Positions 1 through 47,353 of a stretch of DNA of 64,000 nucleotides are shown piece by piece; the first letter of the stretch is position 1, and each line of letters opens with the position of its first letter. A program made the position numbers and the translations under genes. The notes beneath the pieces were generated by a model that searched no databases, had not been told where the DNA came from, and saw nothing but the letters and a program-made list of their open reading frames with translations. This DNA comes from Eledone cirrhosa (taxonomy: Eukaryota), in NCBI GenBank assembly GCA_964016885.1, contig OZ024740.1:435984001-436048000 (forward strand). Reading direction: 5' to 3'.

Positions 1-3000
1 TGTGTATTACCTGATTGTGTTGTATGTGGTCCTAGATGTGTGTATTACCTGATTATGTGTTGTATGTGGCCCTAGATGTGTGTATTACCTGATTATGTGT
101 TGTATGTGGCCCTAGATGTGTGTATTACCTGATTATGTGTTGTATGTGGTCCTAGATGTGTGTATTACCTGATTATGTGTTGTATGTGGCCCTAGATGTG
201 TGTATTATCTGATTATGTGTTGTATGTGGTCCTAGATGTGTGTATTACCTGATTATGTGTTGTATGTGGTCCTAGATGTGTGTATTACCTGATTATGTGT
301 TGTATGTGGCCCTAGATGTGTGTATTATCTGATTATGTGTTGTATGTGGTCCTAGATGTGTGTATTACCTGATTATGTGTTGTATGTGGCCCTAGATGTG
401 TGTATTACCTGATTATGTGTTGTATGTGGTCCTAGATGTGTGTATTACCTGATTGTGTTGTATGTGGTCCTAGATGTGTGTATTACCTGATTATGTGTTG
501 TATGTGGTCCTAGATGTGTGTATTACCTGATTATGTGTTTATGTGGCCCTAGATGTGTGTATTACCTGATTGTGTTGTATGTGGTCCTAGATGTGTGTAT
601 TACCTGATTGTGTGTTGTATGTGGTCCTAGATGTGTGTATTACCTGATTGTGTTGTATGTGGTCCTAGATGTGTGTATTACCTGATTATGTGCTGTATGT
701 GGTCCTAGATGTGTGTATTACCTGATTATGTGTTGTATGTGGCCCTAGATGTGTGTATTACCTGATTGTGTTGTATGTGGCCCTAGATGTGTGTATTACC
801 TGATTATGTGTTGTATGTGGTCCTAGATGTGTGTATTACCTGATTATGTGTTGTATGTGGTCCTAGATGTGTGTATTACCTGATTGTGTTGTATGTGGCC
901 CTAGATGTGTGTATTACCTGATTATGTGTTGTATGTGGTCGTAGATGTGTGTATTACCTGATTATGTGTTGTATGTGGTCCTAGATGTGTGTATTACCTG
1001 ATTGTGTTGTATGTGGCCCTAGATGTGTGTATTACCTGATTATGTGTTGTATGTGGCCCTAGATGTGTGTAATACCTGATTATGTGTTGTATGTGGTCCT
1101 AGATGTGTGTATTACCTGATTATGTGTTGTATGTGGTCCTAGATGTGTGTATTATCTGATTATGTGTTGTATGTGGTCCTAGATGTGTGTATTATCTGAT
1201 TATGTGTTGTATGTGGTCCTAGATGTGTGTATTACCTGATTGTGTTGTATGTGGCCCTAGATGTGTGTATTACCTGATTATGTGTTGTATGTGGCCCTAG
1301 ATGTGTGTATTACCTGATTGTGTTGTATGTGGTCCTAGATGTGTGTATTACCTGATTATGTGTTGTATGTGGTCCTAGATGTGTGTATTACCTGCTTATG
1401 TGTTGTATGTGGCCCTAGATGTGTGTATTACCTGATTGTGTTGTATGTGGCCCTAGATGTGTGTATTACCTGATTATGTGTTGTATGTGGCCCTAGATGT
1501 GTGTATTACCTGATTATGTGTTGTATGTGGCCCTAGATGTGTGTATTACCTGATTATGTGTTGTATGTGGTCCTTGATGTGTGTATTACCTGATTATGTG
1601 TTGTGTGTGGTCCTAGATGTGTGTATTACCTGATTATGTGTTGTATGTGGTCCTAGATGTGTGTATTACCTGATTGTGTTGTATGTGGTCCTAGATGTGT
1701 GTATTACCTGATTATGTGTTGTATGTGGTCCTAGATGTGTGTATTACCTGATTATGTGTTGTATGTGGCCCTAGATGTGTGTATTACCTGATTATGTGTT
1801 GTATGTGGTCCTAGATGTGTGTATTACCTGATTGTGTTGTATGTGGCCCTAGATGTGTGTATTACCTGATTATGTGTTGTATGTCGTCCTAGATGTGTGT
1901 ATTACCTGATTATGTGTTGCATGTGGTCCTAGATGTGTGTATTACCTGATTGTGTTATATGTGGTCCTAGATGTGTGTATTACCTGATTGTGTTGTATGT
2001 GGCCCTAGATGTGTGTATTACCTGATTATGTGTTGTATGTGGTCCTAGATGTGTGTATTACCTGATTGTGTTGTATGTGGTCCTAGATGTGTGTATTACC
2101 TGATTATGTGTTGTATGTGGTCCTAGATGTGTGTATTACCTGATTATGTGTTGTATGTGGTCCTAGATGTGTGTATTACCTGATTGTGTTGTATGTGGCC
2201 CTAGATGTGTGTATTACCTGATTGTGTTGTATGTGGCCCTAGATGTGTGTATTACCTGATTGTGTTGTATGTGGTCCTAGATGTGTGTATTACCTGATTA
2301 TGTGTTGTATGTGGTCCTAGATGTGTGTATTATCTGATTGTGTTGTATGTGGTCCTAGATGTGTGTATTATCTGATTATGTGTTGTATGTGGTCCTAGAT
2401 GTGTGTATTATCTGATTGTGTTGTATGTGGTCCTAGATGTGTGTATTATCTGATTATGTGTTGTATGTGGTCCTAGATGTGTGTATTACCTGATTGTGTT
2501 GTATGTGGTCCTAGATGTGTGTATTACCTGATTATGTGTTGTATGTGGTCCTAGATGTGTGTATTACCTGATTATGTGTTGTATGTGGCCCTAGATGTGT
2601 GTATTACCTGATTGTGTTGTATGTGGCCCTAGATGTGTGTATTACCTGATTATGTGTTGTATGTGGTCCTAGATGTGTGTATTACCTGATTGTGTTGTAT
2701 GTGGTCCTAGATGTGTGTATTACCTGATTATGTGCTGTATGTGGTCCTAGATGTGTGTATTACCTGATTATGTGTTGTATGTGGCCCTAGATGTGTGTAT
2801 TACCTGATTGTGTTGTATGTGGCCCTAGATGTGTGTATTACCTGATTATGTGTTGTATGTTGTCCTAGATGTGTGTATTACCTGATTATGTGCTGTATGT
2901 GGTCCTAGATGTGTGTATTACCTGATTATGTGTTGTATGTGGCCCTAGATGTGTGTATTACCTGATTGTGTTGTATGTGGCCCTAGATGTGTGTATTACC

Positions 3001-6000
3001 TGATTATGTGTTGTATGTGGCCCTAGATGTGTGTCTTACCTGATTGTGTTGTATGTGGTCCTAGATGTGTGTATTACCTGATTATGTGCTGTATGTGGTC
3101 CTAGATGTGTGTATTACCTGATTGTGTTGTATGTGGTCCTAGATGTGTGTATTACCTGATTATGTGCTGTATGTGGTCCTAGATGTGTGTATTACCTGAT
3201 TATGTGTTGTATGTGGCCCTAGATGTGTGTATTACCTGATTGTGTTGTATGTGGCCCTAGATGTGTGTATTACCTGATTATGTGTTGTATGTGGCCCTAG
3301 ATGTGTGTATTACCTGATTGTGTTGTATGTGGCCCTAGATGTGTGTATTACCTGATTATGTGTTGTGTGTGGCCCTAGATGTGTGTATTACCTGATTGTG
3401 TTGTATGTGGCCCTAGATGTGTGTATTACCTGATTATGTGTTGTATGTGGTCGTAGATGTGTGTATTACCTGATTATGTGTTGTATGTCGTCCTAGATGT
3501 GTGTATTACCTGATTGTGTTGTATGTGGCCCTAGATGTGTGTATTACCTGATTATGTGTTGTATGTGGTCGTAGATGTGTGTATTACCTGATTATGTGTT
3601 GTATGTCGTCCTAGATGTGTGTATTACCTGATTGTGTTGTATGTGGCCCTAGATGTGTGTATTACCTGATTGTGTTGTATGTGGCCCTAGATGTGTGTAT
3701 TACCTGATTGTGTTGTATATCGTCCTAGATGTGTGTATTACCTGATTGTGTTGTATGTGGTCCTAGATGTGTGTATTATCTGATTATGTGTTGTATGTCG
3801 TGCTAGATGTGTGTATTACCTGATTGTGTTGTATGTGGCCCTAGATGTGTGTAATACCTGATTATGTGTTGTATGTGGTCCTAGATGTGTGTATTACCTG
3901 ATTATGTGTTGTATGTGGTCCTAGATGTGTGTATTATCTCATTATGTGTTGTATGTGGTCCTAGATGTGTGTATTATCTGATTATGTGTTGTATGTGGTC
4001 CTAGATGTGTGTATTATCTGATTATGTGTTGTATGTGGTCCTAGATGTGTGTATTACCTGATTGTGTTGTATGTGGCCCTAGATGTGTGTATTACCTGAT
4101 TATGTGTTGTATGTGGCCCTAGATGTGTGTATTACCTGATTGTGTTGTATGTGGTCCTAGATGTGTGTATTACCTGATTATGTGTTGTATGTGGTCCTAG
4201 ATGTGTGTATTACCTGATTATGTCTTGTATGTGGCCCTAGATGTGTGTATTACCTGATTGTGTTCTATGTGGCCCTAGATGTGTGTATTACCTGATTATG
4301 TGTTGTATGTGGCCGTAGATGTGTGTATTACCTGATTATGTGTTGTATGTGGCCCTAGATGTGTGTATTACCTGATTATGTGTTGTATGTGGTCCTTGAT
4401 GTGTATATTACCTGATTATGTGTTGTGTGTGGTCCTAGATGTGTGTATTACCTGATTATGTGTTGTATGTGGTCCTAGATGTGTGTATTACCTGATTGTG
4501 TTGTATGTGGTCCTAGATGTGTGTATTACCTGATTATGTGTTGTATGTGGTCCTAGATGTGTGTATTACCTGATTATGTGTTGTATGTGGTCCTAGATGT
4601 GTGTATTACCTGATTGTGTTGTATGTGGCCCTAGATGTGTGTATTACCTGATTATGTGTTGTATGTCGTCCTAGATGTGTGTATTACCTGATTATGTGTT
4701 GTATGTGGTCCTAGATGTGTGTATTACCTGATTGTGTTATATGTGGTCCTAGATGTGTGTATTACCTGATTGTGTTGTCTGTGGCCCTAGATGTGTGTAT
4801 TACCTTATTAAGTATTGTATGTGGTCCTAGATGTGTGTATTACCTGATTGTGTTGTATGTGGTCCTAGATGTGTGTATTACCTGATTGTGTTGTATGTGG
4901 TCCTAGATGTGTCATTTACCTGATTATGTGTTGTATGTGGTCCTAGATGTGTGTATTACCTGATTATGTGTTGTATGTGGTCCTAGATGTGTGTATTACC
5001 TGATTGTGTTGTATGTGGCCCTAGATGTGTGTATTACCTGATTGTGTTGTATGTGGTCCTAGATGTGTGTATTATCTGATTGTGTAGTATGTGGTCCTAG
5101 ATGTGTGTATTATCTGATTGTGTTGTATGTGGTCCTAGATGTGTGTATTACCTGATTATGTGTTGTATGTGGTCCTAGATGTGTGTATTATCTGATTGTG
5201 TTGTATGTGGCCCTAGATGTGTGTATTACCTGATTGTGTTGTATGTGGTCCTAGATGTGTGTATTATCTGATTGTGTTGTATGTGGCCCTAGATGTGTGT
5301 ATTACCTGATTGTGTTGTATGTGGTCCTAGATGTGTGTATTACCTGATTATGTGTTGTATGTGGTCCTAGATGTGTGTATTATCTGATTGTGTTGTATGT
5401 GGCCCTAGATGTGTGTATTACCTGATTGTGTTGTATGTGGTCCTAGATGTGTGTATTACCTGATTATGTGTTGTATGTGGTCCTAGATGTGTGTATTATC
5501 TGATTGTGTTGTATGTGGCCCTAGATGTGTGTATTACCTGATTGTGTTGTATGTGGTCCTAGAAGTGTGTATTACCTTATTATGTGTTGTATGTGGTCCT
5601 AGATGTGTGTATTACCTGATTGTGTTGTATGTGGCCCTAGATGTGTGTATTACCTGATTATGTGTTGTATGTGGTCCTAGATGTGTGTATTATCTGATTA
5701 TGTGTTGTATGTGGTCCTAGATGTGTGTATTACCTGATTATGTGTTGTATGTGGTCCTAGATGTGTGTATTACCTGATTGTGTTGTATGTGGTCCTAGAT
5801 GTGTGTATTACCTGATTATGTGTTGTATGTGGCCCTAGATGTGTGTATTACCTGATTATGTGTTGTATGTGGCTCTAGATGTGTGTATTACCTGATTATG
5901 TGTTGTATGTGGCCCTAGATGTGTGTATTACCTGATTGTGTTGTATGTGGTCCTAGATGTGTGTATTATCTGATTGTGTTGTATGTGGCCCTAGATGTGT

Positions 6001-9000
6001 GTATTACCTGATTGTGTTGTATGCGGTCCTAGATGTGTGTATTACCTGATTATGTGTTGTATGTGGTCCTAGATGTGTGTATTATCTGATTGTGTTGTAT
6101 GTGGCCCTAGATGTGTGTATTACCTGATTGTGTTGTATGTGGTCCTAGATGTGTGTATTACCTGATTATGTGTTGTATGTGGTCCTAGATGTGTGTATTA
6201 TCTGATTGTGTTGTATGTGGCCCTAGATGTGTGTATTACCTGATTGTGTTGTATGTGGTCCTAGATGTGTGTATTACCTGATTATGTGTTGTATGTGGTC
6301 CTAGATGTGTGTATTACCTGATTGTGTTGTATGTGGCCCTAGATGTGTGTATTACCTGATTATGTGTTGTATGTGGTCCTAGATGTGTGTATTATCTGAT
6401 TATGTGTTGTATGTGGTCCTAGATGTGTGTATTACCTGATTATGTGTTGTATGTGGTCCTAGATGTGTGTATTACCTGATTGTGTTGTATGTGGTCCTAG
6501 ATGTGTGTATTACCTGATTATGTGTTGTATGTGGCCCTAGATGTGTGTATTACCTGATTATGTGTTGTATGTGGCCCTAGATGTGTGTATTACCTGATTA
6601 TGTGTTGTATGTGGTCCTAGATGTGTGTATTACCTGATTATGTGTTGTATGTGGCCCTAGATGTGTGTATTATCTGATTATGTGTTGTATGTGGTCCTAG
6701 ATGTGTGTATTACCTGATTATGTGTTGTATGTGGTCCTAGATGTGTGTATTACCTGATTATGTGTTGTATGTGGCCCTAGATGTGTCTATTATCTGATTA
6801 TGTGTTGTATGTGGTCCTAGATGTGTGTATTACCTGATTATGTGTTGTATGTGGCCCTAGATGTGTGTATTACCTGATTATGTGTTGTATGTGGTCCTAG
6901 ATGTGTGTATTACCTGATTGTGTTGTATGTGGTCCTAGATGTGTGTATTACCTGATTATGTGTTGTATGTGGTCCTAGATGTGTGTATTACCTGATTATG
7001 TGTTTATGTGGCCCTAGATGTGTGTATTACCTGATTGTGTTGTATGTGGTCCTAGATGTGTGTATTACCTGATTATGCGTTGTATGTGGTCCTAGATGTG
7101 TGTATTACCTGATTGTGTTGTATGTGGTCCTAGATGTGTGTATTACCTGATTATGTGCTGTATGTGGTCCTAGATGTGTGTATTACCTGATTATGTGTTG
7201 TATGTGGCCCTAGATGTGTGTATTACCTGATTGTGTTGTATGTGGCCCTAGATGTGTGTATTACCTGATTATGTGTTGTATGTGGTCCTAGATGTGTGTA
7301 TTACCTGATTATGTGTTGTATGTGGTCCTAGATGTGTGTATTACCTGATTGTGTTGTATGTGGCCCTAGATGTGTGTATTACCTGATTATGTGTTGTATG
7401 TGGTCGTAGATGTGTGTATTACCTGATTATGTGTTGTATGTGGTCCTAGATGTGTGTATTGCCTGATTGTGTTGTATGTGGCCCTAGATGTGTGTATTAC
7501 CTGATTATGTGTTGTATGTGGCCCTAGATGTGTGTAATACCTGATTATGTGTTGTATGTGGTCCTAGATGTGTGTATTACCTGATTATGTGTTGTATGTG
7601 GTCCTAGATGTGTGTATTATCTGATTATGTGTTGTATGTGGTCCTAGATGTGTGTATTATCTGATTATGTGTTGTATGTGGTCCTAGATGTGTGTATTAT
7701 CTGATTATGTGTTGTATGTGGTCCTAGATGTGTGTATTACCTGATTGTGTTGTATGTGGCCCTAGATGTGTGTATTACCTGATTATGTGTTGTATGTGGC
7801 CCTAGATGTGTGTATTACCTGATTGTGTTGTATGTGGTCCTAGATGTGTGTATTACCTGATTATGTGTTGTATGTGGTCCTAGATGTGTGTATTACCTGC
7901 TTATGTGTTGTATGTGGCCCTAGATGTGTGTATTACCTGATTGTGTTGTATGTGGCCCTAGATGTGTGTATTACCTGATTATGTGTTGTATGTGGCCCTA
8001 GATGTGTGTATTACCTGATTATGTGTTGTATGTGGCCCTAGATGTGTGTATTACCTGATTATGTGTTGTATGTGGTCCTTGATGTGTGTATTACCTGATT
8101 ATGTGTTGTGTGTGGTCCTAGATGTGTGTATTACCTGATTATGTGTTGTATGTGGTCCTAGATGTGTGTATTACCTGATTGTGTTGTATGTGGTCCTAGA
8201 TGTGTGTATTACCTGATTATGTGTTGTATGTGGTCCTAGATGTGTGTATTACCTGATTATGTGTTGTATGTGGCCCTAGATGTGTGTATTACCTGATTAT
8301 GTGTTGAATGTGGTCCTAGATGTGTGTATTACCTGATTGTGTTGTATGTGGCCCTAGATGTGTGTATTACCTGATTATGTGTTGTATGTCGTGCTAGATG
8401 TGTGTATTACCTGATTATGTGTTGTATGTGGTCCTAGATGTGTGTATTACCTGATTGTGTTATATGTGGTCCTAGATGTGTGTATTACCTGATTGTGTTG
8501 TATGTGGCCCTAGATGTGTGTATTACCTGATTATGTGTTGTATGTGGTCCTAGATGTGTGTATTACCTGATTGTGTTGTATGTGGTCCTAGATGTGTGTA
8601 TTACCTGATTATGTGTTGTATGTGGTCCTAGATGTGTGTATTACCTGATTATGTGTTGTATGTGGTCCTAGATGTGTGTATTACCTGATTGTGTTGTATG
8701 TGGCCCTAGATGTGTGTATTACCTGATTGTGTTGTATGTGGCCCTAGATGTGTGTATTACCTGATTGTGTTGTATGTGGTCCTAGATGTGTGTATTACCT
8801 GATTATGTGTTGTATGTGGTCCTAGATGTGTGTATTATCTGATTGTGTTGTATGTGGTCCTAGATGTGTGTATTATCTGATTATGTGTTGTATGTGGTCC
8901 TAGATGTGTGTATTATCTGATTGTGTTGTATGTGGTCCTAGATGTGTGTATTATCTGATTATGTGTTGTATGTGGTCCTAGATGTGTGTATTACCTGATT

Positions 9001-12000
9001 GTGTTGTATGTGGTCCTAGATGTGTGTATTACCTGATTATGTGTTGTATGTGGTCCTAGATGTGTGTATTACCTGATTATGTGTTGTATGTGGCCCTAGA
9101 TGTGTGTATTACCTGATTGTGTTGTATGTGGCCCTAGATGTGTGTATTACCTGATTATGTGTTGTATGTGGTCCTAGATGTGTGTATTACCTGATTGTGT
9201 TGTATGTGGTCCTAGATGTGTGTATTACCTGATTATGTGCTGTATGTGGTCCTAGATGTGTGTATTACCTGATTATGTGTTGTATGTGGCCCTAGATGTG
9301 TGTATTACCTGATTGTGTTGTATGTGGCCCTAGATGTGTGTATTACCTGATTATGTGTTGTATGTGGTCCTAGATGTGTGTATTACCTGATTATGTGCTG
9401 TATGTGGTCCTAGATGTGTGTATTACCTGATTATGTGTTGTATGTGGCCCTAGATGTGTGTATTACCTGATTGTGTTGTATGTGGCCCTAGATGTGTGTA
9501 TTACCTGATTATGTGTTGTATGTGGCCCTAGATGTGTGTATTACCTGATTGTGTTGTATGTGGTCCTAGATGTGTGTATTACCTGATTATGTGCTGTATG
9601 TGGTCCTAGATGTGTGTATTACCTGATTATGTGTTGTATGTGGCCCTAGATGTGTGTATTACCTGATTGTGTTGTATGTGGCCCTAGATGTGTGTATTAC
9701 CTGATTATGTGTTGTATGTGGCCCTAGATGTGTGTATTACCTGATTGTGTTGTATGTGGCCCTAGATGTGTGTATTACCTGATTATGTGTTGTGTGTGGC
9801 CCTAGATGTGTGTATTACCTGATTGTGTTGTATGTGGCCCTAGATGTGTGTATTACCTGATTATGTGTTGTATGTCGTCCTAGATGTGTGTATTACCTGA
9901 TTATGTGTTGTATGTGGTCCTAGATGTGTGTATTACCTGATTGTGTTATATGTGGTCCTAGATGTGTGTATTACCTGATTGTGTTGTATGTGGCCCTAGA
10001 TGTGTGTATTACCTGATTATGTGTTGTATGTGGTCCTAGATGTGTGTATTACCTGATTGTGTTGTATGTGGTCCTAGATGTGTGTATTACCTGATTATGT
10101 GTTGTATGTGGTCCTAGATGTGTGTATTACCTGATTATGTGTTGTATGTGGTCCTAGATGTGTGTATTACCTGATTGTGTTGTATGTGGCCCTAGATGTG
10201 TGTATTACCTGATTGTGTTGTATGTGGCCCTAGATGTGTGTATTACCTGATTGTGTTGTATGTGGTCCTAGATGTGTGTATTACCTGATTATGTGTTGTA
10301 TGTGGTCCTAGATGTGTGTATTATCTGATTGTGTTGTATGTGGTCCTAGATGTGTGTATTATCTGATTATGTGTTGTATGTGGTCCTAGATGTGTGTATT
10401 ATCTGATTGTGTTGTATGTGGTCCTAGATGTGTGTATTATCTGATTGTGTTGTATGTGGCCCTAGATGTGTGTATTACCTGATTGTGTTGTATGTGGTCC
10501 TAGATGTGTGTATTACCTGATTATGTGTTGTATGTGGTCCTAGATGTGTGTATTATCTGATTGTGTTGTATGTGGCCCTAGATGTGTGTATTACCTGATT
10601 GTGTTGTATGTGGTCCTAGATGTGTGTATTACCTGATTATGTGTTGTATGTGGTCCTAGATGTGTGTATTACCTGATTGTGTTGTATGTGGCCCTAGATG
10701 TGTGTATTACCTGATTATGTGTTGTATGTGGTCCTAGATGTGTGTATTATCTGATTATGTGTTGTATGTGGTCCTAGATGTGTGTATTACCTGATTATGT
10801 GTTGTATGTGGTCCTAGATGTGTGTATTACCTGATTGTGTTGTATGTGGTCCTAGATGTGTGTTATACCTGATTATGTGTTGTATGTGGCCCTAGATGTG
10901 TGTATTACCTGATTATGTGTTGTATGTGGCCCTAGATGTGTGTATTACCTGATTATGTGTTGTATGTGGTCCTAGATGTGTGTATTACCTGATTATGTGT
11001 TGTATGTGGCCCTAGATGTGTGTATTATCTGATTATGTGTTGTATGTGGTCCTAGATGTGTGTATTACCTGATTATGTGTTGTATGTGGTCCTAGATGTG
11101 TGTATTACCTGATTATGTGTTGTATGTGGCCCTAGATGTGTCTATTATCTGATTATGTGTTGTATGTGGTCCTAGATGTGTGTATTACCTGATTATGTGT
11201 TGTATGTGGCCCTAGATGTGTGTATTACCTGATTATGTGTTGTATGTGGTCCTAGATGTGTGTATTACCTGATTGTGTTGTATGTGGTCCTAGATGTGTG
11301 TATTACCTGATTATGTGTTGTATGTGGTCCTAGATGTGTGTATTACCTGATTATGTGTTTATGTGGCCCTAGATGTGTGTATTACCTGATTGTGTTGTAT
11401 GTGGTCCTAGATGTGTGTATTACCTGATTATGCGTTGTATGTGGTCCTAGATGTGTGTATTACCTGATTGTGTTGTATGTGGTCCTAGATGTGTGTATTA
11501 CCTGATTATGTGCTGTATGTGGTCCTAGATGTGTGTATTACCTGATTATGTGTTGTATGTGGCCCTAGATGTGTGTATTACCTGATTGTGTTGTATGTGG
11601 CCCTAGATGTGTGTATTACCTGATTATGTGTTGTATGTGGTCCTAGATGTGTGTATTACCTGATTATGTGTTGTATGTGGTCCTAGATGTGTGTATTACC
11701 TGATTGTGTTGTATGTGGCCCTAGATGTGTGTATTACCTGATTATGTGTTGTATGTGGTCGTAGATGTGTGTATTACCTGATTATGTGTTGTATGTGGTC
11801 CTAGATGTGTGTATTGCCTGATTGTGTTGTATGTGGCCCTAGATGTGTGTATTACCTGATTATGTGTTGTATGTGGCCCTAGATGTGTGTAATACCTGAT
11901 TATGTGTTGTATGTGGTCCTAGATGTGTGTATTACCTGATTATGTGTTGTATGTGGTCCTAGATGTGTGTATTATCTGATTATGTGTTGTATGTGGTCCT

Positions 12001-15000
12001 AGATGTGTGTATTATCTGATTATGTGTTGTATGTGGTCCTAGATGTGTGTATTATCTGATTATGTGTTGTATGTGGTCCTAGATGTGTGTATTACCTGAT
12101 TGTGTTGTATGTGGCCCTAGATGTGTGTATTACCTGATTATGTGTTGTATGTGGCCCTAGATGTGTGTATTACCTGATTGTGTTGTATGTGGTCCTAGAT
12201 GTGTGTATTACCTGATTATGTGTTGTATGTGGTCCTAGATGTGTGTATTACCTGCTTATGTGTTGTATGTGGCCCTAGATGTGTGTATTACCTGATTGTG
12301 TTGTATGTGGCCCTAGATGTGTGTATTACCTGATTATGTGTTGTATGTGGCCCTAGATGTGTGTATTACCTGATTATGTGTTGTATGTGGCCCTAGATGT
12401 GTGTATTACCTGATTATGTGTTGTATGTGGTCCTTGATGTGTGTATTACCTGATTATGTGTTGTGTGTGGTCCTAGATGTGTGTATTACCTGATTATGTG
12501 TTGTATGTGGTCCTAGATGTGTGTATTACCTGATTGTGTTGTATGTGGTCCTAGATGTGTGTATTACCTGATTATGTGTTGTATGTGGTCCTAGATGTGT
12601 GTATTACCTGATTATGTGTTGTATGTGGCCCTAGATGTGTGTATTACCTGATTATGTGTTGAATGTGGTCCTAGATGTGTGTATTACCTGATTGTGTTGT
12701 ATGTGGCCCTAGATGTGTGTATTACCTGATTATGTGTTGTATGTCGTCCTAGATGTGTGTATTACCTGATTATGTGTTGTATGTGGTCCTAGATGTGTGT
12801 ATTACCTGATTGTGTTATATGTGGTCCTAGATGTGTGTATTACCTGATTGTGTTGTATGTGGCCCTAGATGTGTGTATTACCTGATTATGTGTTGTATGT
12901 GGTCCTAGATGTGTGTATTACCTGATTGTGTTGTATGTGGTCCTAGATGTGTGTATTACCTGATTATGTGTTGTATGTGGTCCTAGATGTGTGTATTACC
13001 TGATTATGTGTTGTATGTGGTCCTAGATGTGTGTATTACCTGATTGTGTTGTATGTGGCCCTAGATGTGTGTATTACCTGATTGTGTTGTATGTGGCCCT
13101 AGATGTGTGTATTACCTGATTGTGTTGTATGTGGTCCTAGATGTGTGTATTACCTGATTATGTGTTGTATGTGGTCCTAGATGTGTGTATTATCTGATTG
13201 TGTTGTATGTGGTCCTAGATGTGTGTATTATCTGATTATGTGTTGTATGTGGTCCTAGATGTGTGTATTATCTGATTGTGTTGTATGTGGTCCTAGATGT
13301 GTGTATTATCTGATTATGTGTTGTATGTGGTCCTAGATGTGTGTATTACCTGATTGTGTTGTATGTGGTCCTAGATGTGTGTATTACCTGATTATGTGTT
13401 GTATGTGGTCCTAGATGTGTGTATTACCTGATTATGTGTTGTATGTGGCCCTAGATGTGTGTATTACCTGATTGTGTTGTATGTGGCCCTAGATGTGTGT
13501 ATTACCTGATTATGTGTTGTATGTGGTCCTAGATGTGTGTATTACCTGATTGTGTTGTATGTGGTCCTAGATGTGTGTATTACCTGATTATGTGCTGTAT
13601 GTGGTCCTAGATGTGTGTATTACCTGATTATGTGTTGTATGTGGCCCTAGATGTGTGTATTACCTGATTGTGTTGTATGTGGCCCTAGATGTGTGTATTA
13701 CCTGATTATGTGTTGTATGTGGTCCTAGATGTGTGTATTACCTGATTATGTGCTGTATGTGGTCCTAGATGTGTGTATTACCTGATTATGTGTTGTATGT
13801 GGCCCTAGATGTGTGTATTACCTGATTGTGTTGTATGTGGCCCTAGATGTGTGTATTACCTGATTATGTGTTGTATGTGGCCCTAGATGTGTGTATTACC
13901 TGATTGTGTTGTATGTGGTCCTAGATGTGTGTATTACCTGATTATGTGCTGTATGTGGTCCTAGATGTGTGTATTACCTGATTATGTGTTGTATGTGGCC
14001 CTAGATGTGTGTATTACCTGATTGTGTTGTATGTGGCCCTAGATGTGTGTATTACCTGATTATGTGTTGTATGTGGCCCTAGATGTGTGTATTACCTGAT
14101 TGTGTTGTATGTGGCCCTAGATGTGTGTATTACCTGATTATGTGTTGTGTGTGGCCCTAGATGTGTGTATTACCTGATTGTGTTGTATGTGGCCCTAGAT
14201 GTGTGTATTACCTGATTATGTGTTGTATGTCGTCCTAGATGTGTGTATTACCTGATTATGTGTTGTATGTGGTCCTAGATGTGTGTATTACCTGATTGTG
14301 TTATATGTGGTCCTAGATGTGTGTATTACCTGATTGTGTTGTATGTGGCCCTAGATGTGTGTATTACCTGATTATGTGTTGTATGTGGTCCTAGATGTGT
14401 GTATTACCTGATTGTGTTGTATGTGGTCCTAGATGTGTGTATTACCTGATTATGTGTTGTATGTGGTCCTAGATGTGTGTATTACCTGATTATGTGTTGT
14501 ATGTGGTCCTAGATGTGTGTATTACCTGATTGTGTTGTATGTGGCCCTAGATGTGTGTATTACCTGATTGTGTTGTATGTGGCCCTAGATGTGTGTATTA
14601 CCTGATTGTGTTGTATGTGGTCCTAGATGTGTGTATTACCTGATTATGTGTTGTATGTGGTCCTAGATGTGTGTATTATCTGATTGTGTTGTATGTGGTC
14701 CTAGATGTGTGTATTATCTGATTATGTGTTGTATGTGGTCCTAGATGTGTGTATTATCTGATTGTGTTGTATGTGGTCCTAGATGTGTGTATTATCTGAT
14801 TATGTGTTGTATGTGGTCCTAGATGTGTGTATTACCTGATTGTGTTGTATGTGGTCCTAGATGTGTGTATTACCTGATTATGTGTTGTATGTGGTCCTAG
14901 ATGTGTGTATTACCTGATTATGTGTTGTATGTGGCCCTAGATGTGTGTATTACCTGATTGTGTTGTATGTGGCCCTAGATGTGTGTATTACCTGATTATG

Positions 15001-18000
15001 TGTTGTATGTGGTCCTAGATGTGTGTATTACCTGATTGTGTTGTATGTGGTCCTAGATGTGTGTATTACCTGATTATGTGCTGTATGTGGTCCTAGATGT
15101 GTGTATTACCTGATTATGTGTTGTATGTGGCCCTAGATGTGTGTATTACCTGATTGTGTTGTATGTGGCCCTAGATGTGTGTATTACCTGATTATGTGTT
15201 GTATGTGGTCCTAGATGTGTGTATTACCTGATTATGTGCTGTATGTGGTCCTAGATGTGTGTATTACCTGATTATGTGTTGTATGTGGCCCTAGATGTGT
15301 GTATTACCTGATTGTGTTGTATGTGGCCCTAGATGTGTGTATTACCTGATTATGTGTTGTATGTGGCCCTAGATGTGTGTATTACCTGATTGTGTTGTAT
15401 GTGGTCCTAGATGTGTGTATTACCTGATTATGTGCTGTATGTGGTCCTAGATGTGTGTATTACCTGATTATGTGTTGTATGTGGCCCTAGATGTGTGTAT
15501 TACCTGATTGTGTTGTATGTGGCCCTAGATGTGTGTATTACCTGATTATGTGTTGTATGTGGCCCTAGATGTGTGTATTACCTGATTGTGTTGTATGTGG
15601 CCCTAGATGTGTGTATTACCTGATTATGTGTTGTGTGTGGCCCTAGATGTGTGTATTACCTGATTGTGTTGTATGTGGCCCTAGATGTGTGTATTACCTG
15701 ATTATGTGTTGTATGTGGTCGTAGATGTGTGTATTACCTGATTATGTGTTGTATGTCGTCCTAGATGTGTGTATTACCTGATTGTGTTGTATGTGGCCCT
15801 AGATGTGTGTATTACCTGATTATGTGTTGTATGTGGCCCTAGATGTGTGTAATACCTGATTATGTGTTGTATGTGGTCCTAGATGTGTGTATTACCTGAT
15901 TATGTGTTGTATGTGGTCCTAGATGTGTGTATTATCTGATTATGTGTTGTATGTGGTCCTAGATGTGTGTATTATCTGATTATGTGTTGTATGTGGTCCT
16001 AGATGTGTGTATTATCTGATTATGTGTTGTATGTGGTCCTAGATGTGTGTATTACCTGATTGTGTTGTATGTGGCCCTAGATGTGTGTATTACCTGATTA
16101 TGTGTTGTATGTGGCCCTAGATGTGTGTATTACCTGATTGTGTTGTATGTGGTCCTAGATGTGTGTATTACCTGATTATGTGTTGTATGTGGTCCTAGAT
16201 GTGTGTATTATCTGATTATGTGTTGTATGTGGTCCTAGATGTGTGTATTACCTGATTGTGTTGTATGTGGCCGTAGATGTGTGTATTACCTGATTATGTG
16301 TTGTATGTGGCCCTAGATGTGTGTATTACCTGATTATGTGTTGTATGTGGTCCTTGATGTGTGTATTACCTGATTATGTGTTGTGTGTGGTTCTAGATGT
16401 GTGTATTACCTGATTATGTGTTGTATGTGGTCCTAGATGTGTGTATTACCTGATTGTGTTGTATGTGGTCCTAGATGTGTGTATTACCTGATTATGTGTT
16501 GTATGTGGTCCTAGATGTGTGTATTACCTGATTATGTGTTGTATGTGGTCCTAGATGTGTGTATTACCTGATTGTGTTGTATGTGGCCCTAGATGTGTGT
16601 ATTACCTGATTATGTGTTGTATGTCGTCCTAGATGTGTGTATTACCTGATTATGTGTTGTATGTGGTCCTAGATGTGTGTATTACCTGATTGTGTTATAT
16701 GTTGTCCTAGATGTGTGTATTACCTGATTGTGTTGTATGTGGCCCTAGATGTGTGTATTACCTTATTATGTATTGTATGTGGTCCTAGATGTGTGTATTA
16801 CCTGATTGTGTTGTATGTGGTCCTAGATGTGTGTATTACCTGATTGTGTTGTATGTGGTCCTAGATGTGTCATTTACCTGATTATGTGTTGTATGTGGTC
16901 CTAGATGTGTGTATTACCTGATTATGTGTTGTATGTGGTCCTAGATGTGTGTATTACCTGATTGTGTTGTATGTGGCCCTAGATGTGTGTATTACCTGAT
17001 TGTGTTGTATGTGGCCCTAGATGTGTGTATTACCTGATTGTGTTGTATGTGGTCCTAGATGTGTGTATTACCTGATTATGTGTTGTATGTGGTCCTAGAT
17101 GTGTGTATTACCTGATTATGTGTTGTATGTGGCCCTAGATGTGTGTATTACCTGATTGTATTGTATGTGGCCCTAGATGTGTGTATTACCTGATTATGTG
17201 TTGTATGTGGTCCTAGATGTGTGTATTACCTGATTGTGTTGTATGTGGTCCTAGATGTGTGTATTACCTGATTATGTGTTGTATGTGGTCCTAGATGTGT
17301 GTATTATCTGATTGTGTTGTATGTGGTCCTAGATGTGTGTATTACCTGATTATGTGTTGTATGTGGTCCTAGATGTGTGTATTACCTGATTGTGTTGTAT
17401 GTGGCCCTAGATGTGTGTATTACCTGATTGTGTTGTATGTGGCCCTAGATGTGTGTATTACCTGATTATGTGTTGTATGTGGCCCTAGATGTGTGTATTA
17501 CCTGATTGTGTTGTATGTGGTCCTAGATGTGTGTATTACCTGATTATGTGTTGTATGTGGTCCTAGATGTGTGTATTATCTGATTATGTGTTGTATGTCG
17601 TCCTAGATGTGTGTATTACCTGATTGTGTTGTATGTGGCCGTAGATGTGTGTATTACCTGATTATGTGTTGTATGTGGCCCTAGATGTGTGTATTACCTG
17701 ATTATGTGTTGTATGTGGTCCTTGATGTGTGTATTACCTGATTATGTGTTGTGTGTGGTTCTAGATGTGTGTATTACCTGATTATGTGTTGTATGTGGTC
17801 CTAGATGTGTGTATTACCTGATTGTGTTGTATGTGGTCCTAGATGTGTGTATTACCTGATTATGTGTTGTATGTGGTCCTAGATGTGTGTATTACCTGAT
17901 TATGTGTTGTATGTGGTCCTAGATGTGTGTATTACCTGATTGTGTTGTATGTGGCCCTAGATGTGTGTATTACCTGATTATGTGTTGTATGTCGTCCTAG

Positions 18001-20696
18001 ATGTGTGTATTACCTGATTATGTGTTGTATGTGGTCCTAGATGTGTGTATTACCTGATTGTGTTATATGTTGTCCTAGATGTGTGTATTACCTGATTGTG
18101 TTGTATGTGGCCCTAGATGTGTGTATTACCTTATTATGTATTGTATGTGGTCCTAGATGTGTGTATTACCTGATTGTGTTGTATGTGGTCCTAGATGTGT
18201 GTATTACCTGATTGTGTTGTATGTGGTCCTAGATGTGTCATTTACCTGATTATGTGTTGTATGTGGTCCTAGATGTGTGTATTACCTGATTATGTGTTGT
18301 ATGTGGTCCTAGATGTGTGTATTACCTGATTGTGTTGTATGTGGCCCTAGATGTGTGTATTACCTGATTGTGTTGTATGTGGCCCTAGATGTGTGTATTA
18401 CCTGATTGTGTTGTATGTGGTCCTAGATGTGTGTATTACCTGATTATGTGTTGTATGTGGTCCTAGATGTGTGTATTACCTGATTATGTGTTGTATGTGG
18501 CCCTAGATGTGTGTATTACCTGATTGTATTGTATGTGGCCCTAGATGTGTGTATTACCTGATTATGTGTTGTATGTGGTCCTAGATGTGTGTATTACCTG
18601 ATTGTGTTGTATGTGGTCCTAGATGTGTGTATTACCTGATTATGTGTTGTATGTGGTCCTAGATGTGTGTATTATCTGATTGTGTTGTATGTGGTCCTAG
18701 ATGTGTGTATTACCTGATTATGTGTTGTATGTGGTCCTAGATGTGTGTATTACCTGATTGTGTTGTATGTGGCCCTAGATATGTGTATTACCTGATTGTG
18801 TTGTATGTGGCCCTAGATGTGTGTATTACCTGATTGTGTTGTATGTGGTCCTAGATGTGTGTATTACCTGATTATGTGTTGTATGTGGTCCTAGATGTGT
18901 GTATTATCTGATTATGTGTTGTATGTGGTCCTAGATGTGTGTATTACCTGATTGTGTTGTATGTGGCCCTAGATGTGTGTATTACCTGATTATGTGTTGT
19001 ATGTGGTCCTAGATGTGTGTATTATCAGATTGTGTTGTATGTGGCCCTAGATGTGTGTATTACCTGATTGTGTTGTATGTGGTCCTAGATGTGTGTATTA
19101 CCTGATTATGTGTTGTATGTGGTCCTAGATGTGTGTATTATCTGATTATGTGTTGTATGTGGTCCTAGATGTGTGTATTACCTGATTGTGTTGTATGTGG
19201 CCCTAGATGTGAGTATTACCTGATTATGTGTTGTATGTGGTCCTAGATGTGTGTATTACCTGATTATGTGTTGTATGTGGTCCTAGATGTGTGTATTATC
19301 TGATTATGTGTTGTATGTGGTCCTAGATGTGTGTATTACCTGATTATGTGTTGTATGTGGTCCTAGATGTGTGTATTATCTGATTCTGTTGTATGTGGTC
19401 CTAGATGTGTGTATTATCTGATTATGTGTTGTATGTGGTCCTAGATGTGTGTATTATCTGATTGTGTTGTATGTGGTCCTAGATGTGTGTATTATCTGAT
19501 TATGTGTTGTATGTGGTCCTTGATATGTGTATTACCTGATTATGTGTTGTCTGTGGTCCTAGATGTGTGTATTATCTGATTGTGTTGTATGTGGTCCTAG
19601 ATGTGTGTATTACCTGATTATGTGTTGTATGTGGTCCTAGATGTGTGTATTATCTGATTGTGTAGTATGTGGTCCTAGATGTGTGTATTATCTGATTGTG
19701 TTGTATGTGGTCCTAGATGTGTGTATTACCTGATTGTGTTGTATGTGGTCCTAGATGTGTGTATTACCTGATTATGTGTTGTATGTGGTCCTAGATGTGT
19801 GTATTATCTGATTGTGTTGTATGTGGCCCTAGATGTGTGTATTACCTGATTGTGTTGTATGTGGTCCTAGATGTGTGTATTATCTGATTGTGTTGTATGT
19901 GGCCCTAGATGTGTGTATTACCTGATTGTGTTGTATGTGGTCCTAGATGTGTGTATTACCTGATTATGTGTTGTATGTGGTCCTAGATGTGTGTATTATC
20001 TGATTGTGTTGTATGTGGCCCTAGATGTGTGTATTACCTGATTGTGTTGTATGTGGTCCTAGATGTGTGTATTACCTGATTATGTGTTGTATGTGGTCCT
20101 AGATGTGTGTATTATCTGATTGTGTTGTATGTGGCCCTAGATGTGTGTATTACCTGATTGTGTTGTGTGTGGTCCTAGATGTGTGTATTACCTGATTGTG
20201 TTGTATGTGGCCCTAGATGTGTGTATTACCTGATTGTGTTGTATGTGGTCCTAGATGTGTGTATTATCTGATTGTGTTGTATGTGGTCCTAGATGTGTGT
20301 ATTACCTGATTATGTGTTGTATGTGGTCCTAGATGTGTGTATTACCTGATTGTGTTGTATGTGGTCCTAGATGTGTGTATTACCTGATTATGTGTTGTAT
20401 GTGGTCCTAGATGTGTGTATTACCTGATTATGTGTTGTATGTGGCCCTAGATGTGTGTATTATCTGATTATGTGTTGTATGTGGTCCTAGATGTGTGTAT
20501 TACCTGATTATGTGTTGTATGTGGCCCTAGATGTGCGTATTACCTAATTGTGTTGTATGTGGTCCTAGATGTGTGTATTACCTGATTATGTGTTGTATGT
20601 GGCCCTAGATGTGTGTATTACCTGATTATGTGTTGTATGTGGTCCTAGATGTGTGTATTATCTGATTATGTGTTGTATGTGGTCCTAGATGTGTGT
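1..20696. repeat. Satellite A, mixed 40/38-bp monomers (CTAGATGTGTGTATTACCTGATT[AT]GTGTTGTATGTGGYC), roughly 530 copies, truncated by the window start
   Basis: Monomer read directly. The 38-bp variant lacks AT after GATT. Recurrent GGTCC/GGCCC and TACC/TATC variants. Array ends at GATGTGTGT (20696) before a T-rich tract. Confidence 0.98.
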
Positions 20697-20893
20697 TCTA
20701 CTTGCTTCTGTTTTTTTCTTTTCTTTTTTTAATTTGTAATATTATTTATACAATAGGGAATAAAATAGATCTACATAGTGTTAACTCGTTACGGTTGAGT
20801 CAATAATTTCAGACATGAAATACATTGTTATCGGTGAAGGAAAGATAAGATTCTAACTGGCTGTGCTCAAAGTGTCTTTGACCCAGTTGACTG

Positions 20894-21079
20894 TGGGTTT
20901 TTCCATTTTTAGGATCTCAATTACCGGTTAATGTCTGAATTACCGGACATGCCTGCACACCTGCTCACAGCTGCAGACAGCATAACTATAGTCTGACCGC
21001 AGCTGTGAGCAGGTGTGCAGGCATGTCCGATAATTGAGACGTTAACCGGTAATTGAGATCCTAAAAATGGAAAAATCCA
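20894..21079. repeat. Long inverted repeat (foldback/MITE-like), ~80-bp arms with a 24-bp spacer
   Basis: 20898-20974 is the reverse complement of 20999-21075 with 3 mismatches in 77 bp, extendable 4 bp outward with one more mismatch. The spacer contains a CAGAC/GTCTG inner stem. No target-site duplication seen. Confidence 0.9.
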
Positions 21080-21150
21080 GCCTCCCCCCCCCCCCAACCC
21101 CCTCCCCCAGCTCCAAACGCCCCCCTAACGCGACCTTGCTCCCAAACGCC

Positions 21151-22068
21151 CCCTGGGGGACCCTCAGTTTGACATGTCTGGTGTACTCCAGGTATGTCAA
21201 ACATGTGGCCCTCGGGGGACCCTCAGTTTGACATGTCTGGTGTAATCCAGGTATGTCAAACATGTGGCCCTCGGGGGACCCTCAGTTTGACATGTCTGGT
21301 GTAATCCAGGTATGTCAAACATTTGGCCCTTGGGGGACCCTCAGTTTGACATGTCTGGTGTAATCCAGGTATGTCAAACATGTGGCCCTAGGGGGTCCCT
21401 CAGTTTGACATGTCTGGTGTAATCCAGGTATGTCAAACATGTGGCCCTCGGGGGACCCTCAGTTTGACATGTCTGGTGTAATCCAGGTATGTCAAACATG
21501 TGGCCCTCGGGGGACCCTCAGTTTGACATGTCTGGTGTAATCCAGGTATGTCAAACATGTGGCCCTCGGGGGACCCTCAGTTTGACATGTCTGGTGTAAT
21601 CCAGGTATGTCAAACATTTGGCCCTAGGGGGACCCTCAGTTTGACATGTCTGGTGTAATCCAGGTATGTCAAACATGTGGCCCTAGGGGGTCCCTCAGTT
21701 TGACATGTCTGGTGTAATCCAGGTATGTCAAACATGTGGCCCTCGGGGGACCCTCAGTTTGACATGTCTGGTGTAATCCAGGTATGTCAAACATTTGGCC
21801 CTAGGGGGACCCTCAGTTTGACATGTCTGGTGTAATCCAGGTATGTCAAACATTTGGCCCTTGGGGGAGCCTAAGTTTGACATGTCTGGTGTAATCCAGG
21901 TATGTCAAACATTTGGCCCTTGGGGGAGCCTCAGTTTGACATGTCTGGTGTAATCCAGGTATGTTAAACATTTGGCCCTTGGGGGAGCTTCAGTTTGACA
22001 TGTCTGGTGTAATCCAGGTATGTCAAACATTTGGCCCTTGGGGGACCCTCAGTTTGACTGGTGTAATC
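21151..22068. mobile_element. 59-bp tandem array (~15.5 units) of 51-bp hAT/Charlie-like mini-elements, each followed by an 8-bp spacer
   Basis: Unit = CAGGTATGTCAAAC-atgtggccctcgggggaccctca-GTTTGACATGTCTG + GTGTAATC. The 14-bp terminal inverted repeats (12/14 match) start with CAG, and the 8-bp spacer has a central TA, as for hAT-Charlie/Buster TSDs. First full element 21189-21239; the last (from 22015) has a 5-bp deletion in the right TIR. Confidence 0.75.
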
Positions 22069-22200
22069 CCTGTTAATTTATAGATAATGGACAAATATTT
22101 AAATATATACTGAGAGATTCTGTATTGCAAATTCAGCCAAACTGACTTAGGGAAAGACCAAAACAATGGGATCTTTGGTCTAAACAAATGACATTTACTG

Positions 22201-22302
22201 TGACTTGCTCATACAGAACTGTTTCTGGCTCAGTTTCTACAGCTTGATGCCCTAATGCCAACCACATTTATGGTGTGGATGGATGCTTTTTATCCTGGCA
22301 CC
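22201..22302 (-). mobile_element. Degenerate RTE-LINE 3'UTR fragment
   Basis: Reverse complement aligns by eye to ~49495-49601 (cttgctcatacag...tttctacagct.gatgccct...tgctttt...tggcacc). Confidence 0.8.
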
Positions 22303-22439
22303 AAAATGACAGGTTGGACTGGGTAGTTTTTCTCACATAGAGGGTCCCTTGTCTTCACACTCACAAATGCAGTACTAGTATTTTTTTTAGATTTAATTTA
22401 TTTGCATGAATTCATCACCACATTGATCACCATATTGAC

Positions 22440-22475
22440 CTAATGTTGTTGTTGTTGTTGTTGTTGTTGTTGCAG
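22440..22475 (+). promoter_or_regulatory. 3' splice site: CTAAT branch point, (GTT)9 tract, CAG acceptor
   Basis: CTAAT at 22440-22444 matches YTRAY. (GTT)9G at 22445-22472. AG at 22474-22475 directly precedes the TBC exon. Confidence 0.7.
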
Positions 22476-22550
22476 GCCTATTCCTTACATGACAGGGAAG
22501 TGGGATACTGTCAAGGTAGTGGTTTTATTGTAGGATTGTTACTCATGCAG
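22476..22550 (+). CDS. EVI5: Internal coding exon (75 bp, phase 0/0) of an EVI5/EVI5L-like TBC-domain Rab GTPase-activating protein
   Basis: Hand translation [25 protein letters not shown] carries the TBC glutamine-finger motif GYCQG and nearly matches EVI5 as recalled ([25 protein letters not shown]). Flanked by tgcag| and |gtaagt. Absent from the ORF track. Confidence 0.9.
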
Positions 22551-22660
22551 GTAAGTTAATCACTCTAATATATATAAATTGTCCATCACCTTTCTTTCCT
22601 TCTTCCAGTCACTTCTGTGTACTTCTCTTTGTCCCCCTCCTATTTCAATCTTTTCTACAT

Positions 22661-23063
22661 TTACCCAATTACACATCTCAAAGGCGATGACACACGACCA
22701 TGACCTCTGGCGTCACGCAGTAATACAGAGTACCCGACCTCCCATGGGTACAAGCTGAAGCATATAGACAATATGCCCCCACACCCTCCCACTGCAAGGT
22801 GGTCATGGAGGTGCCACGGCAAAAAGCACCCAGCCCACACTGTAAAGTAGATGTGTAGGCGCCACGAAAAAGCACCCATCACTCACTGTAAATGAGGTTG
22901 TTGTTAGGAAGGGCATCCAGCTGTAGAAATCAAGCGAAATCAGTTTCTGTATGAGCAAGGCATGGTCAGCCAACCAGACACTGCCCACAGCAGGACAACC
23001 CTTCTAACCCATGCTAGCGTGGAAGAACAGACGTAATACGGTGATGATGATGATGATGATGAT
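22661..23063 (+). mobile_element. 5'-truncated RTE-clade LINE (end of ORF, 3'UTR, (GAT)7 tail)
   Basis: Highly similar to 49342-49696, which follows an RTE RT C-terminus. Ends in a (GAT)n tail typical of RTE elements. Confidence 0.9.
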
Positions 23064-45619: not shown

Positions 45620-45664
45620 ATGGTTGTTCCAGCAATGAGTGTTCTCATTTTTATATGTATTCAT

Positions 45665-46066
45665 ATCTTCATCATTGTTTAACGTCCATCTTGAATGCTA
45701 GCATGGGTTAGCTGGGTTTGTCCCACTTGAGGCAAGGTTGGTTGAGTGACCGTGTCTCACTAGCATAGAGCTGTATCTGGCAGGTTTCCTACAGCTGGAT
45801 GCCCTTCCTAATGCCAACCTCATTTACAGTGTGAACTGGGAGCCTTTTTACCGTGTCTCCCACATGACCACTTTACAGGGTGGACTAGGTGCTTTTTCTC
45901 GTGACACCTACAAAACCACTTTACAGGGTGAACTGGGAGCCTTTTTACCGTGTCTCCCACACGACCACTTTACAGGGTGGACTGGGTGCTTTTTCTCGTG
46001 ACACCTACACGACCACTTTTCAGTGTGGACTGGGTGCTTTTTCTCGTGACACCTACATGACCACTT
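45665..46066 (-). mobile_element. RTE-LINE 3'UTR fragment (diverged subfamily) with an internal 48/49-bp repeat x5
   Basis: catcattgtttaacgtcc..atgctagcatgggttag and ctacagctggatgcccttcctaa..caacctcatttacagtg are reverse complements of motifs in the two plus-strand copies. Tandem units span 45823-46066. Confidence 0.85.
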
Positions 46067-46208
46067 GAGATCTGGATCTAGATGTTGAAAAGGCTGGAAC
46101 TTAGCCATTGGGGTCCTGAACCTTTTCCTATTTCCTACTCTACTACCCTAATTATTGAGTACTCTGGTGTGGTATGGTCCACCTGGTTCCTTACCACACT
46201 TTCTTTGT

Positions 46209-47349: not shown

Positions 47350-47353
47350 ATCT

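What the first reader, a model, noticed from the sequence alone, without database searches (positions are those of the whole stretch)
21151..22068. Minisatellite made of whole 51-bp hAT-like transposons, each separated by one 8-bp target-site-like spacer
Seen: the 59-bp unit parses exactly as TIR CAGGTATGTCAAAC + 23-bp core + TIR GTTTGACATGTCTG + GTGTAATC. There are 14 intact elements, one with a damaged TIR and a leading right half, and the array ends precisely on a spacer (22061-22068). Known: hAT elements make 8-bp TSDs, and the Charlie/Buster group has CAG termini and prefers NNNTANNN targets; TGTGGCCC next to the TIR resembles Charlie subterminal motifs as I recall them. Inference: an extremely small MITE was amplified together with its TSD, by TSD-mediated unequal exchange or rolling-circle copying, or by repeated insertion into its own target site. 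The result is about 30 transposase-binding ends in an intron, a possible transposase sink or satellite seed.
Basis: partly seen in the sequence, partly recalled or inferred. Interest (0 to 1): 0.75.

Follow-up and report, generated by a model that had tools for sequence, protein, structure and literature searches.

The report
Minisatellite of collapsed hAT transposon ends
A common small jumping-DNA element of this animal genome is cut down here to 51 bases, little more than its two ends, and is repeated about 15 times with its 8-base insertion footprint inside an intron, most likely by copying slips in place rather than by repeated jumping, which makes it a miniature case of a known route from transposon to satellite DNA.

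Summary
The array is real: 15 units of 59 bp plus a leading right half. Each unit is both ends of a Buster-type hAT MITE family (mostly 160-220 bp, at least 507 left ends elsewhere, 14-bp TIRs, 8-bp nnnTAnnn TSDs, decayed transposase parents), joined at a 9-bp internal repeat, plus one 8-bp spacer that also closes the array. It lies in a 50.3-kb intron of a TBC-domain gene. The mobile 51-bp MITE does not: the short form was found at 2 loci only (this array; one single copy with a perfect, different TSD), no other TIR-TSD-TIR junction was found, and all units share two fixed TIR changes, so they descend from one copy amplified in place. Likely route: internal deletion, hairpin-aided slippage between the two TSDs, then unequal exchange. 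A dimer origin is not excluded, because a deletion removed the left boundary. No intact transposase was seen, so the sink idea is unsupported. Precedent: a ~16-copy hobo array with an 8-nt spacer (PMC5932611). Earlier scan notes describe satellites inside other MITEs of this genome, not this family.

The parts
21151..22068 (+). 59-bp minisatellite: leading right half + 15 units of collapsed hAT element, each followed by the 8-bp TSD
21151..21180 (+). Leading right end of the hAT family (right TIR 21167-21180); everything left of it was deleted
21181..21188 (+). First spacer, one base different from the other 15
21189..21239 (+). First whole 51-bp unit: left TIR 14 bp, shared 9-bp repeat (deletion joint), 14 bp of right subterminal sequence, right TIR 14 bp
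   Evidence: 1 mismatch to the family's left TIR (5 to the look-alike internal motif), 1 mismatch over the family's last 37 bp
22015..22060 (+). Last unit, 46 bp, 5 bp deleted from the right TIR
22061..22068 (+). Terminal 8-bp spacer, read as the 3' target-site duplication; single-copy DNA follows
20697..21156 (+). Right part of a second, ~0.7-kb hAT MITE (family B) with an internal 87-bp inverted repeat (20894-20980 / 20993-21079); its last ~55 bp and TSD are missing, fused to the array through a short CCCT/GG overlap
   Evidence: 15 of 17 family B copies with both ends have an 8-bp TSD within 1 mismatch
1..20696 (+). 40-bp satellite, an internal unit of family B expanded to about 48 kb (starts about 27.6 kb upstream of the window, 187 bp after family B's left TIR)
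22476..22550 (+). 75-bp exon of a TBC-domain (Rab-GAP) gene, 407 bp downstream of the array

Best explanation
The array is a 51-bp remnant made of the two ends of a Buster-type hAT MITE plus its 8-bp target-site duplication, and it was likely amplified in place, without transposase, from one ancestral copy. Steps: (1) a family member inserted into this intron and duplicated an nnnTAnnn target (family behaviour shown; this event inferred). (2) Its interior was lost between the two 9-bp repeats that lie just inside the left and right ends, leaving TIR-23 bp-TIR (the joint is shown; a single copy of the same product with a perfect TSD is shown at another locus). (3) The remnant folds into a hairpin that brings the two TSD copies together (predicted), so slippage of the new strand across 8-9 bp of identity would add one element + TSD (inferred). 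(4) Unequal exchange or further slippage grew the pair to at least 16 units (order of variants supports it). (5) A later deletion removed the left boundary and the right end of a neighbouring MITE (junction shown). The array is most likely neutral intronic DNA.
For: Family: 515 exact left-end matches, 8 of them in the array, control 0; in the first 30 listed loci 25 have a right end within 1.5 kb, 24 of 25 are 158-220 bp, 19 of 25 have a TSD within 1 mismatch, and flank positions 4-5 are T and A in 29 of 30 each. Parents of 1.9-2.4 kb with the same ends, TSDs and broken transposase frames (L126-128, L238); homologues are GTF2IRD2-like proteins with Spin-doc zinc finger and DUF4371. Single 51-bp copy with CTTTAGAG on both sides (L040). 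One ancestor: one changed base in the left TIR in 15 of 15 units and one in the right TIR in 15 of 15 ends that keep the site. In-place growth: 7 variable columns, 3.8% mean difference, neighbours more alike than shuffled order (p 0.049), difference rises with distance (r 0.27, p 0.022), lowest difference at lag 5. Hairpin -14.4 kcal/mol with the TSDs as its single-stranded feet. No other head-to-tail junction with an 8-bp spacer in the genome (14 of 14 matches in this array). Six other loci show the same family's right end tandemly repeated, so the family and genome are prone to it.
Against: The 5' TSD and the first element's left part are deleted, so it is not shown that the founder was a single 51-bp copy. 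The order statistics are only modestly significant with 15 units. The spacer scores in the lower part of the family's TSD range (5 of 30 score lower; 3.1% of random 8-mers reach it). The junction and 51-mer searches were exact or near-exact patterns and miss decayed copies. Hairpin-aided slippage is known mainly as a source of deletions (seen only in abstract listings); that it produced the duplication here is inference.
Confidence: 0.62

Rival explanations
1. Double insertion: two ordinary ~200-bp copies landed head to tail in one target; the 59-bp junction (right end + TSD + left end), bounded by the two 9-bp repeats, was then amplified, and the interior of the last copy was removed by exchange with an array unit.
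For: Gives the identical unit. Double insertion with the TSD kept at the joint is documented, including a ~16-copy hobo array with an 8-nt spacer (PMC5932611, passages). The junction itself is a strong hairpin (-9.6 kcal/mol, z -5.9). The left boundary is lost, so a long first copy cannot be excluded.
Against: The last element is short, which needs an extra deletion. No intact head-to-tail dimer found elsewhere (0 of 30 sampled loci have a right end directly upstream), whereas the single 51-bp intermediate is seen once.
Confidence: 0.22
2. One burst of rolling-circle or repair-synthesis copying of the 59-bp element + TSD, reinserted or made in place.
For: All units descend from one copy; rolling-circle copying is a proposed route to tandem TEs (PMC5932611; PMC12628747).
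Against: Variants are shared in blocks and graded along the array, which needs several rounds; a 59-bp double-stranded circle is very hard to bend (own knowledge). A burst followed by later turnover cannot be excluded.
Confidence: 0.1
3. The 51-bp element is itself a mobile MITE that inserted repeatedly into its own target site, giving a transposase-binding array.
For: A dispersed 51-bp copy with a perfect TSD exists (L040). Both ends are intact enough to be recognised.
Against: 2 loci only; L040 differs from the array unit at 4 of 51 bases and departs from the family majority at other sites, as expected from separate deletions; studied hATs need about 100-220 bp of each end (Hermes, Tol2, Tag1, Ac; PMC10368747 passages); no intact transposase among 110 matches (a floor); units carry one shared set of changes.
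Confidence: 0.04
4. The inverted repeat is incidental and the array is an ordinary minisatellite or an assembly artefact.
For: 12 of 14 inverted match is reached by 29 of 500 shuffles; the window is mostly tandem repeats.
Against: Unit boundaries fall exactly on the termini defined by dispersed copies and their TSDs; units differ from each other in an ordered way and the right flank is single-copy.
Confidence: 0.02

Closest known systems
hobo tandem array of D. melanogaster line I03 and P-element dimers (McGurk and Barbash 2018, PMC5932611; passages read)
   Same: hAT element, whole copies head to tail, one identical 8-nt target-site motif between the TIRs, about 16 copies, one locus, descent from one founder.
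   Different: There the units are kilobase elements and the founder is a double insertion; here the unit is 51 bp of ends only, minisatellite-sized, and a single collapsed copy is the likelier founder.
Mar MITE of Drosophila willistoni, Buster group of hAT (PMC3517528; passages read)
   Same: Internal-deletion MITE of a Buster transposon, CAG termini, 8-bp nnnTAnnn TSD, relic transposase close to GTF2IRD2-like proteins.
   Different: 610 bp, dispersed; no tandem array in the passages read. Sequence kinship with this family was not tested.
MITE-derived satellites Xstir/Xmix and miDNA4 of Xenopus (seen only through the reviews PMC9659126 and PMC12628747; passages)
   Same: Tandem repeats born from a MITE; stem-loops and microhomology are invoked.
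   Different: Those repeats come from internal MITE sequence (as the neighbouring 48-kb 40-bp satellite does here); this array repeats both termini and the TSD.

Membership tests
hAT superfamily (parent family of the unit) | 8-bp target-site duplication | tested here: met
   19 of 25 sampled copies with both ends have an 8-bp TSD within 1 mismatch; L040 perfect. In the array only the 3' copy and internal spacers survive.
hAT superfamily (parent family of the unit) | Short TIRs (5-27 bp), length under 4 kb (as stated in PMC3517528) | tested here: met
   14-bp TIR, perfect in the family majority; parents 1938 and 2382 bp.
hAT superfamily (parent family of the unit) | hAT transposase between the same ends | tested here: met
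   Broken frames in L124, L126, L238 match a 613-aa protein at 50-84% by piece; homologues carry PF18658, PF14291, some PF05699, and are named GTF2IRD2-like. Direct Pfam hit of the genome's own fragment to Dimer_Tnp_hAT is below cut-off (E 0.003).
Buster group of hAT | TSD consensus nnnTAnnn | tested here: met
   T at 4 in 29 of 30, A at 5 in 29 of 30; the array's spacer has TA at 4-5.
Buster group of hAT | Transposase falls in the Buster clade of a tree | not tested
   No tree with reference Ac/Buster/Tip transposases was built; only the GTF2IRD2-like names and PMC3517528's statement that such proteins lie near Buster.
MITE family (the 51-bp form as a family of its own) | Many dispersed copies of uniform length with different TSDs | tested here: not met
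   2 loci; met instead by the 160-220-bp family.
MITE family (the 51-bp form as a family of its own) | Mobilised in trans by a transposase | not testable with these tools
   Needs an excision/integration assay; no intact transposase seen.
Tandem TE array from double insertion | Spacer equals the element's TSD in length and motif | tested here: met
   8 bp, nnnTAnnn, same 8-mer closes the array.
Tandem TE array from double insertion | Founder is two independent insertions | tested here: inconclusive
   Left boundary deleted; last unit short and its diagnostic base deleted; no other dimers found.
Minisatellite / VNTR | Head-to-tail units of 10-100 bp with variant units in ordered blocks | tested here: met
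Minisatellite / VNTR | Copy number varies between individuals | not testable with these tools
   Only contig-level runs were laid; none spans the array.

The most novel reading that the evidence does not exclude
The 51-bp TIR-TIR element is a minimal hAT that was itself moved by the family's transposase (two loci with different TSDs), far below the 100-220 bp per end that studied hATs need, and any such collapsed element is a ready-made minisatellite seed because its hairpin sets its two TSDs side by side; arrays of ends can then travel as cargo, as the family's double-right-end composite did to four loci.
Probability: 0.12. Interest if true: 0.55.

Novelty: new variant of a known kind. Interest (0 to 1): 0.33.

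Why it matters
It is a clean, very small example of a transposon turning into a tandem repeat with its insertion footprint kept as the spacer, and it suggests that this can happen from one collapsed copy without a second insertion, which the double-insertion model does not cover. The parent family, the single collapsed intermediate and several sister arrays sit in one genome, so the route can be tested with alleles. It is a single locus with no sign of function, in a genome where tandem growth inside transposons is common, so the biological weight is low.

Tried and rejected
Empty or shorter allele: 13 runs listed, no RNA holder listed; 4 runs laid on 20700-22700 and 4 on 22040-22196 (7 different runs) gave repeat-family contigs and two 38-39-bp matches under 90% identity in AT-rich flank, taken as chance; no contig spans the array, so nothing follows on polymorphism or expression. 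Paralogous empty site: the right flank is single-copy. Considered that the unit's 'left TIR' is the family's look-alike internal motif: rejected, 1 mismatch to the left TIR against 5; the C458 hit is such an internal motif (L033) and was not counted as a 51-bp copy. Considered that the spacer is a fossil TSD carried in from another site, as in the 71/98-bp arrays: rejected, the same 8-mer closes the array against unique DNA. Considered derivation from the 46-bp right-end unit (L069, L050) by a 13-bp insertion: less parsimonious, since that insertion would have to recreate the left TIR. The shared GTGT start of spacers in the sister arrays is partly ascertainment, as they were found with this unit as query. 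Next downstream exon not found in 45600-49910 or the 30 kb after the window with the short motifs used. Literature: no paper held all terms in two searches; searches listed no description of an array of whole sub-60-bp MITEs, but the library lacks most subscription papers and Dfam/Repbase could not be searched, so absence from print is not shown. The O. vulgaris repeat paper (PMC13282606, passages) gives only hAT counts; its supplements were not opened.

Full report
Observation. The array is as described. TRF gives period 59, 15.4 copies, 96% matches. Splitting at the left TIR gives 15 starts at exact 59-bp steps from 21189 to 22015: 14 units of 51 bp, a last unit of 46 bp with 5 bp lost from its right TIR, and a leading right half. 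Of 16 spacers 15 read GTGTAATC and the first GTGTACTC; the last is 22061-22068, and the DNA behind it is single-copy. The unit's two TIRs match at 12 of 14, which 29 of 500 shuffles also reach, so the parse needed outside proof.

The family. The window lies at C1:435,984,001-436,048,000 of a 3.0-Gb genome; earlier AI notes call it octopus-like, which I did not test. A search with two units gave 93 matches from 40 of 877 candidates scored. The dispersed ones are right ends of a MITE that begins CAGGCATGTCAAAC and ends in its reverse complement. The 23-base left end has 515 exact matches, 8 in the array, control 0. In the first 30 loci listed (all on C1, chosen by position), 25 have a right end within 1.5 kb, 24 of these are 158-220 bp and one is 787 bp; 19 of 25 have an 8-bp TSD within one mismatch, 21 within two; flank positions 4 and 5 are T and A in 29 of 30 each. 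Longer copies with the same ends hold broken transposase frames: L126-128 (1938 bp, TSD on both sides) and L238 (2382 bp, TSD with one mismatch). A 335-aa open stretch found 19 homologues, the best at 66-67% identity, with Spin-doc zinc finger and DUF4371 domains; the named ones are mostly 'GTF2IRD2-like'. PMC3517528 (passages) gives nnnTAnnn as the Buster TSD and places such proteins near Buster. So the unit's ends belong to a Buster-type hAT family; the clade was not tested by a tree.

The 51-bp form. The unit is the family's first 14 bases (1 mismatch) joined to its last 37 (1 mismatch) at a 9-bp repeat that occurs just inside both ends: an internal deletion between short repeats. It is rare. 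A 35-place pattern found 13 matches, 12 in the array and one on C349; a 35-mer with up to 3 mismatches found 16, of which 14 in the array, the C349 copy, and one internal look-alike in a longer element. The C349 copy is a single 51-bp element with CTTTAGAG on both sides. It differs from the array unit at 4 of 51 bases and departs from the family majority at other sites, which fits two separate deletions as well as one old lineage. A right TIR, 8 bases and a left TIR in a row matched 14 times, all in this array. These are exact or near-exact searches and are floors.

How the array grew. All 15 left TIRs carry the same changed base, all 15 right TIRs that keep the site carry another, and all units share the deletion joint: one founder. 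Seven columns vary (3.8% mean difference); neighbours are more alike than in shuffled order (p 0.049), difference rises with distance (r 0.27, p 0.022), and lag 5 is the closest (units 2-5 resemble 7-10). That is the pattern of stepwise local duplication, though the significance is modest. Folded as single-stranded DNA, TSD-unit-TSD makes one hairpin of -14.4 kcal/mol (z -4.3) with the TSDs as its feet, and the junction makes another (-9.6, z -5.9). I infer that such a hairpin in a new strand let the second TSD re-pair at the first and added one unit; polymerase slippage across hairpins flanked by direct repeats appears in abstract listings (PMC4134008, PMC13465473; listing only), mainly as deletion. 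The rival is a double insertion whose junction was amplified; it yields the same unit, but needs a further deletion to shorten the last element, and no dimer was found elsewhere while the single collapsed intermediate was.

What is lost. Left of the array lies a second hAT MITE of about 0.7 kb (family B; 15 of 17 copies with both ends have a TSD within one mismatch). Its left TIR stands 95 bp after the upstream exon; its internal 40-bp unit has grown to about 48 kb. Its last ~55 bp and TSD are missing: homology stops at 21156 and runs into the array's leading half through a short overlap. A deletion therefore removed the array's left boundary, so the 5' TSD, the founder's left part and the original copy number cannot be read.

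Gene context. The exon upstream ends ..QESLFNVMK|GT and the exon at 22476-22550 continues in phase as a TBC-domain segment; the intron is 50,333 bp, almost all satellite. The name EVI5-like is my recall, not tested.

Sister arrays. The same family has tandem right ends at six other loci: 27, 7, 6 and 1 extra units made of a captured ~34-bp flank plus right end, each inside its own outer TSD (0, 2, 0 and 1 mismatches; L067, L068, L032, L232), and 15 and 2 extra 46-bp units (L069, L050). The first set shows that a copy with an inner right TIR could still move using the outer one. None repeats a whole element.

Function. A transposase sink needs a transposase. Of 110 matches to the 613-aa relative none covers it without stops or frame breaks; the best spans residues 75-612 with one stop (72 of 3627 candidates scored, so an intact copy is not excluded). 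Studied hATs need about 100-220 bp of each end (PMC10368747, passages), and the array adds 31 ends to about a thousand elsewhere. I find no support for function. Sequencing runs gave nothing on alleles or expression.

Comparison and verdict. Whole hAT copies in tandem with one 8-nt TSD between them are known: about 16 hobo copies in one fly line (PMC5932611, passages). MITE-derived satellites are reviewed in PMC9659126 and PMC12628747 (passages) and come from internal sequence. What differs here is the size (ends only, minisatellite scale) and the likely single-copy start. My searches listed no such case, but they cover an open library only. New variant of a known kind, one locus, interest 0.33.

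Noticed in passing
window 1-20696 and L073:2238 onward (C1:435,956,238): The 40-bp satellite of about 48 kb is an internal unit of a ~0.7-kb hAT MITE (family B); other copies hold 1 to at least 8 units. It accounts for nearly all of a 50-kb intron of a TBC-domain gene.
   Followed up: yes
L067, L068, L232 (C24:22.1-23.6 Mb), L032 (C1466): Composite subfamily: element + captured ~34-bp flank beginning with an old TSD-like 8-mer + second right end, found at four loci with four different outer TSDs and 27, 7, 1 and 6 extra units; three loci lie within 1.5 Mb on C24.
   Followed up: partly
L069 (C15:43.53 Mb), L050 (C10:25.70 Mb): Arrays of a 45-52-bp right-end unit whose joint uses a short overlap between the flank and an internal motif; the C10 copy has a different flank, so it may be a moved daughter.
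   Followed up: partly
window 21189-22023, + strand: The changed base in the left TIR makes CAG|GTATGT, a splice-donor-like motif (consensus from own knowledge), 15 times on the gene's sense strand and nowhere else on the window's + strand; with a weak AG upstream it bounds a 24-nt in-frame segment without a stop. No RNA evidence; such pseudo-sites are common in introns.
   Followed up: partly
G000 C25:19.3-23.9 Mb (L122, L125-L150): Dozens of near-identical decayed transposase copies, many with the same TSD (ACCTACAT), spaced about 100-200 kb apart: one insertion multiplied inside a large segmental array.
   Followed up: no
L034, L041, L045, L055, L059: The family's internal 22-bp and 27-bp subterminal repeats are expanded up to about 27 copies inside TSD-bounded elements.
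   Followed up: partly
L234, L236, L237 (C1:112.79 Mb, C1:172.35 Mb, C4:220.6 Mb): Several long transposase copies share ATCTAGAC before the left TIR but have unlike 3' flanks; at L236 a short copy ends on the same 8-mer 695 bp upstream. Possibly a larger composite or a preferred target.
   Followed up: no
window 23067-45619, 49905-51203, 51220-64000 and at least 30 kb beyond: Three more satellites (83, 39 and 41 bp; 22.5 kb, 1.3 kb and over 42 kb); their source elements were not identified.
   Followed up: no
window 20894-21079: 87-bp arms, 93% complementary, 12-bp loop, inside family B and shared by its dispersed copies.
   Followed up: partly
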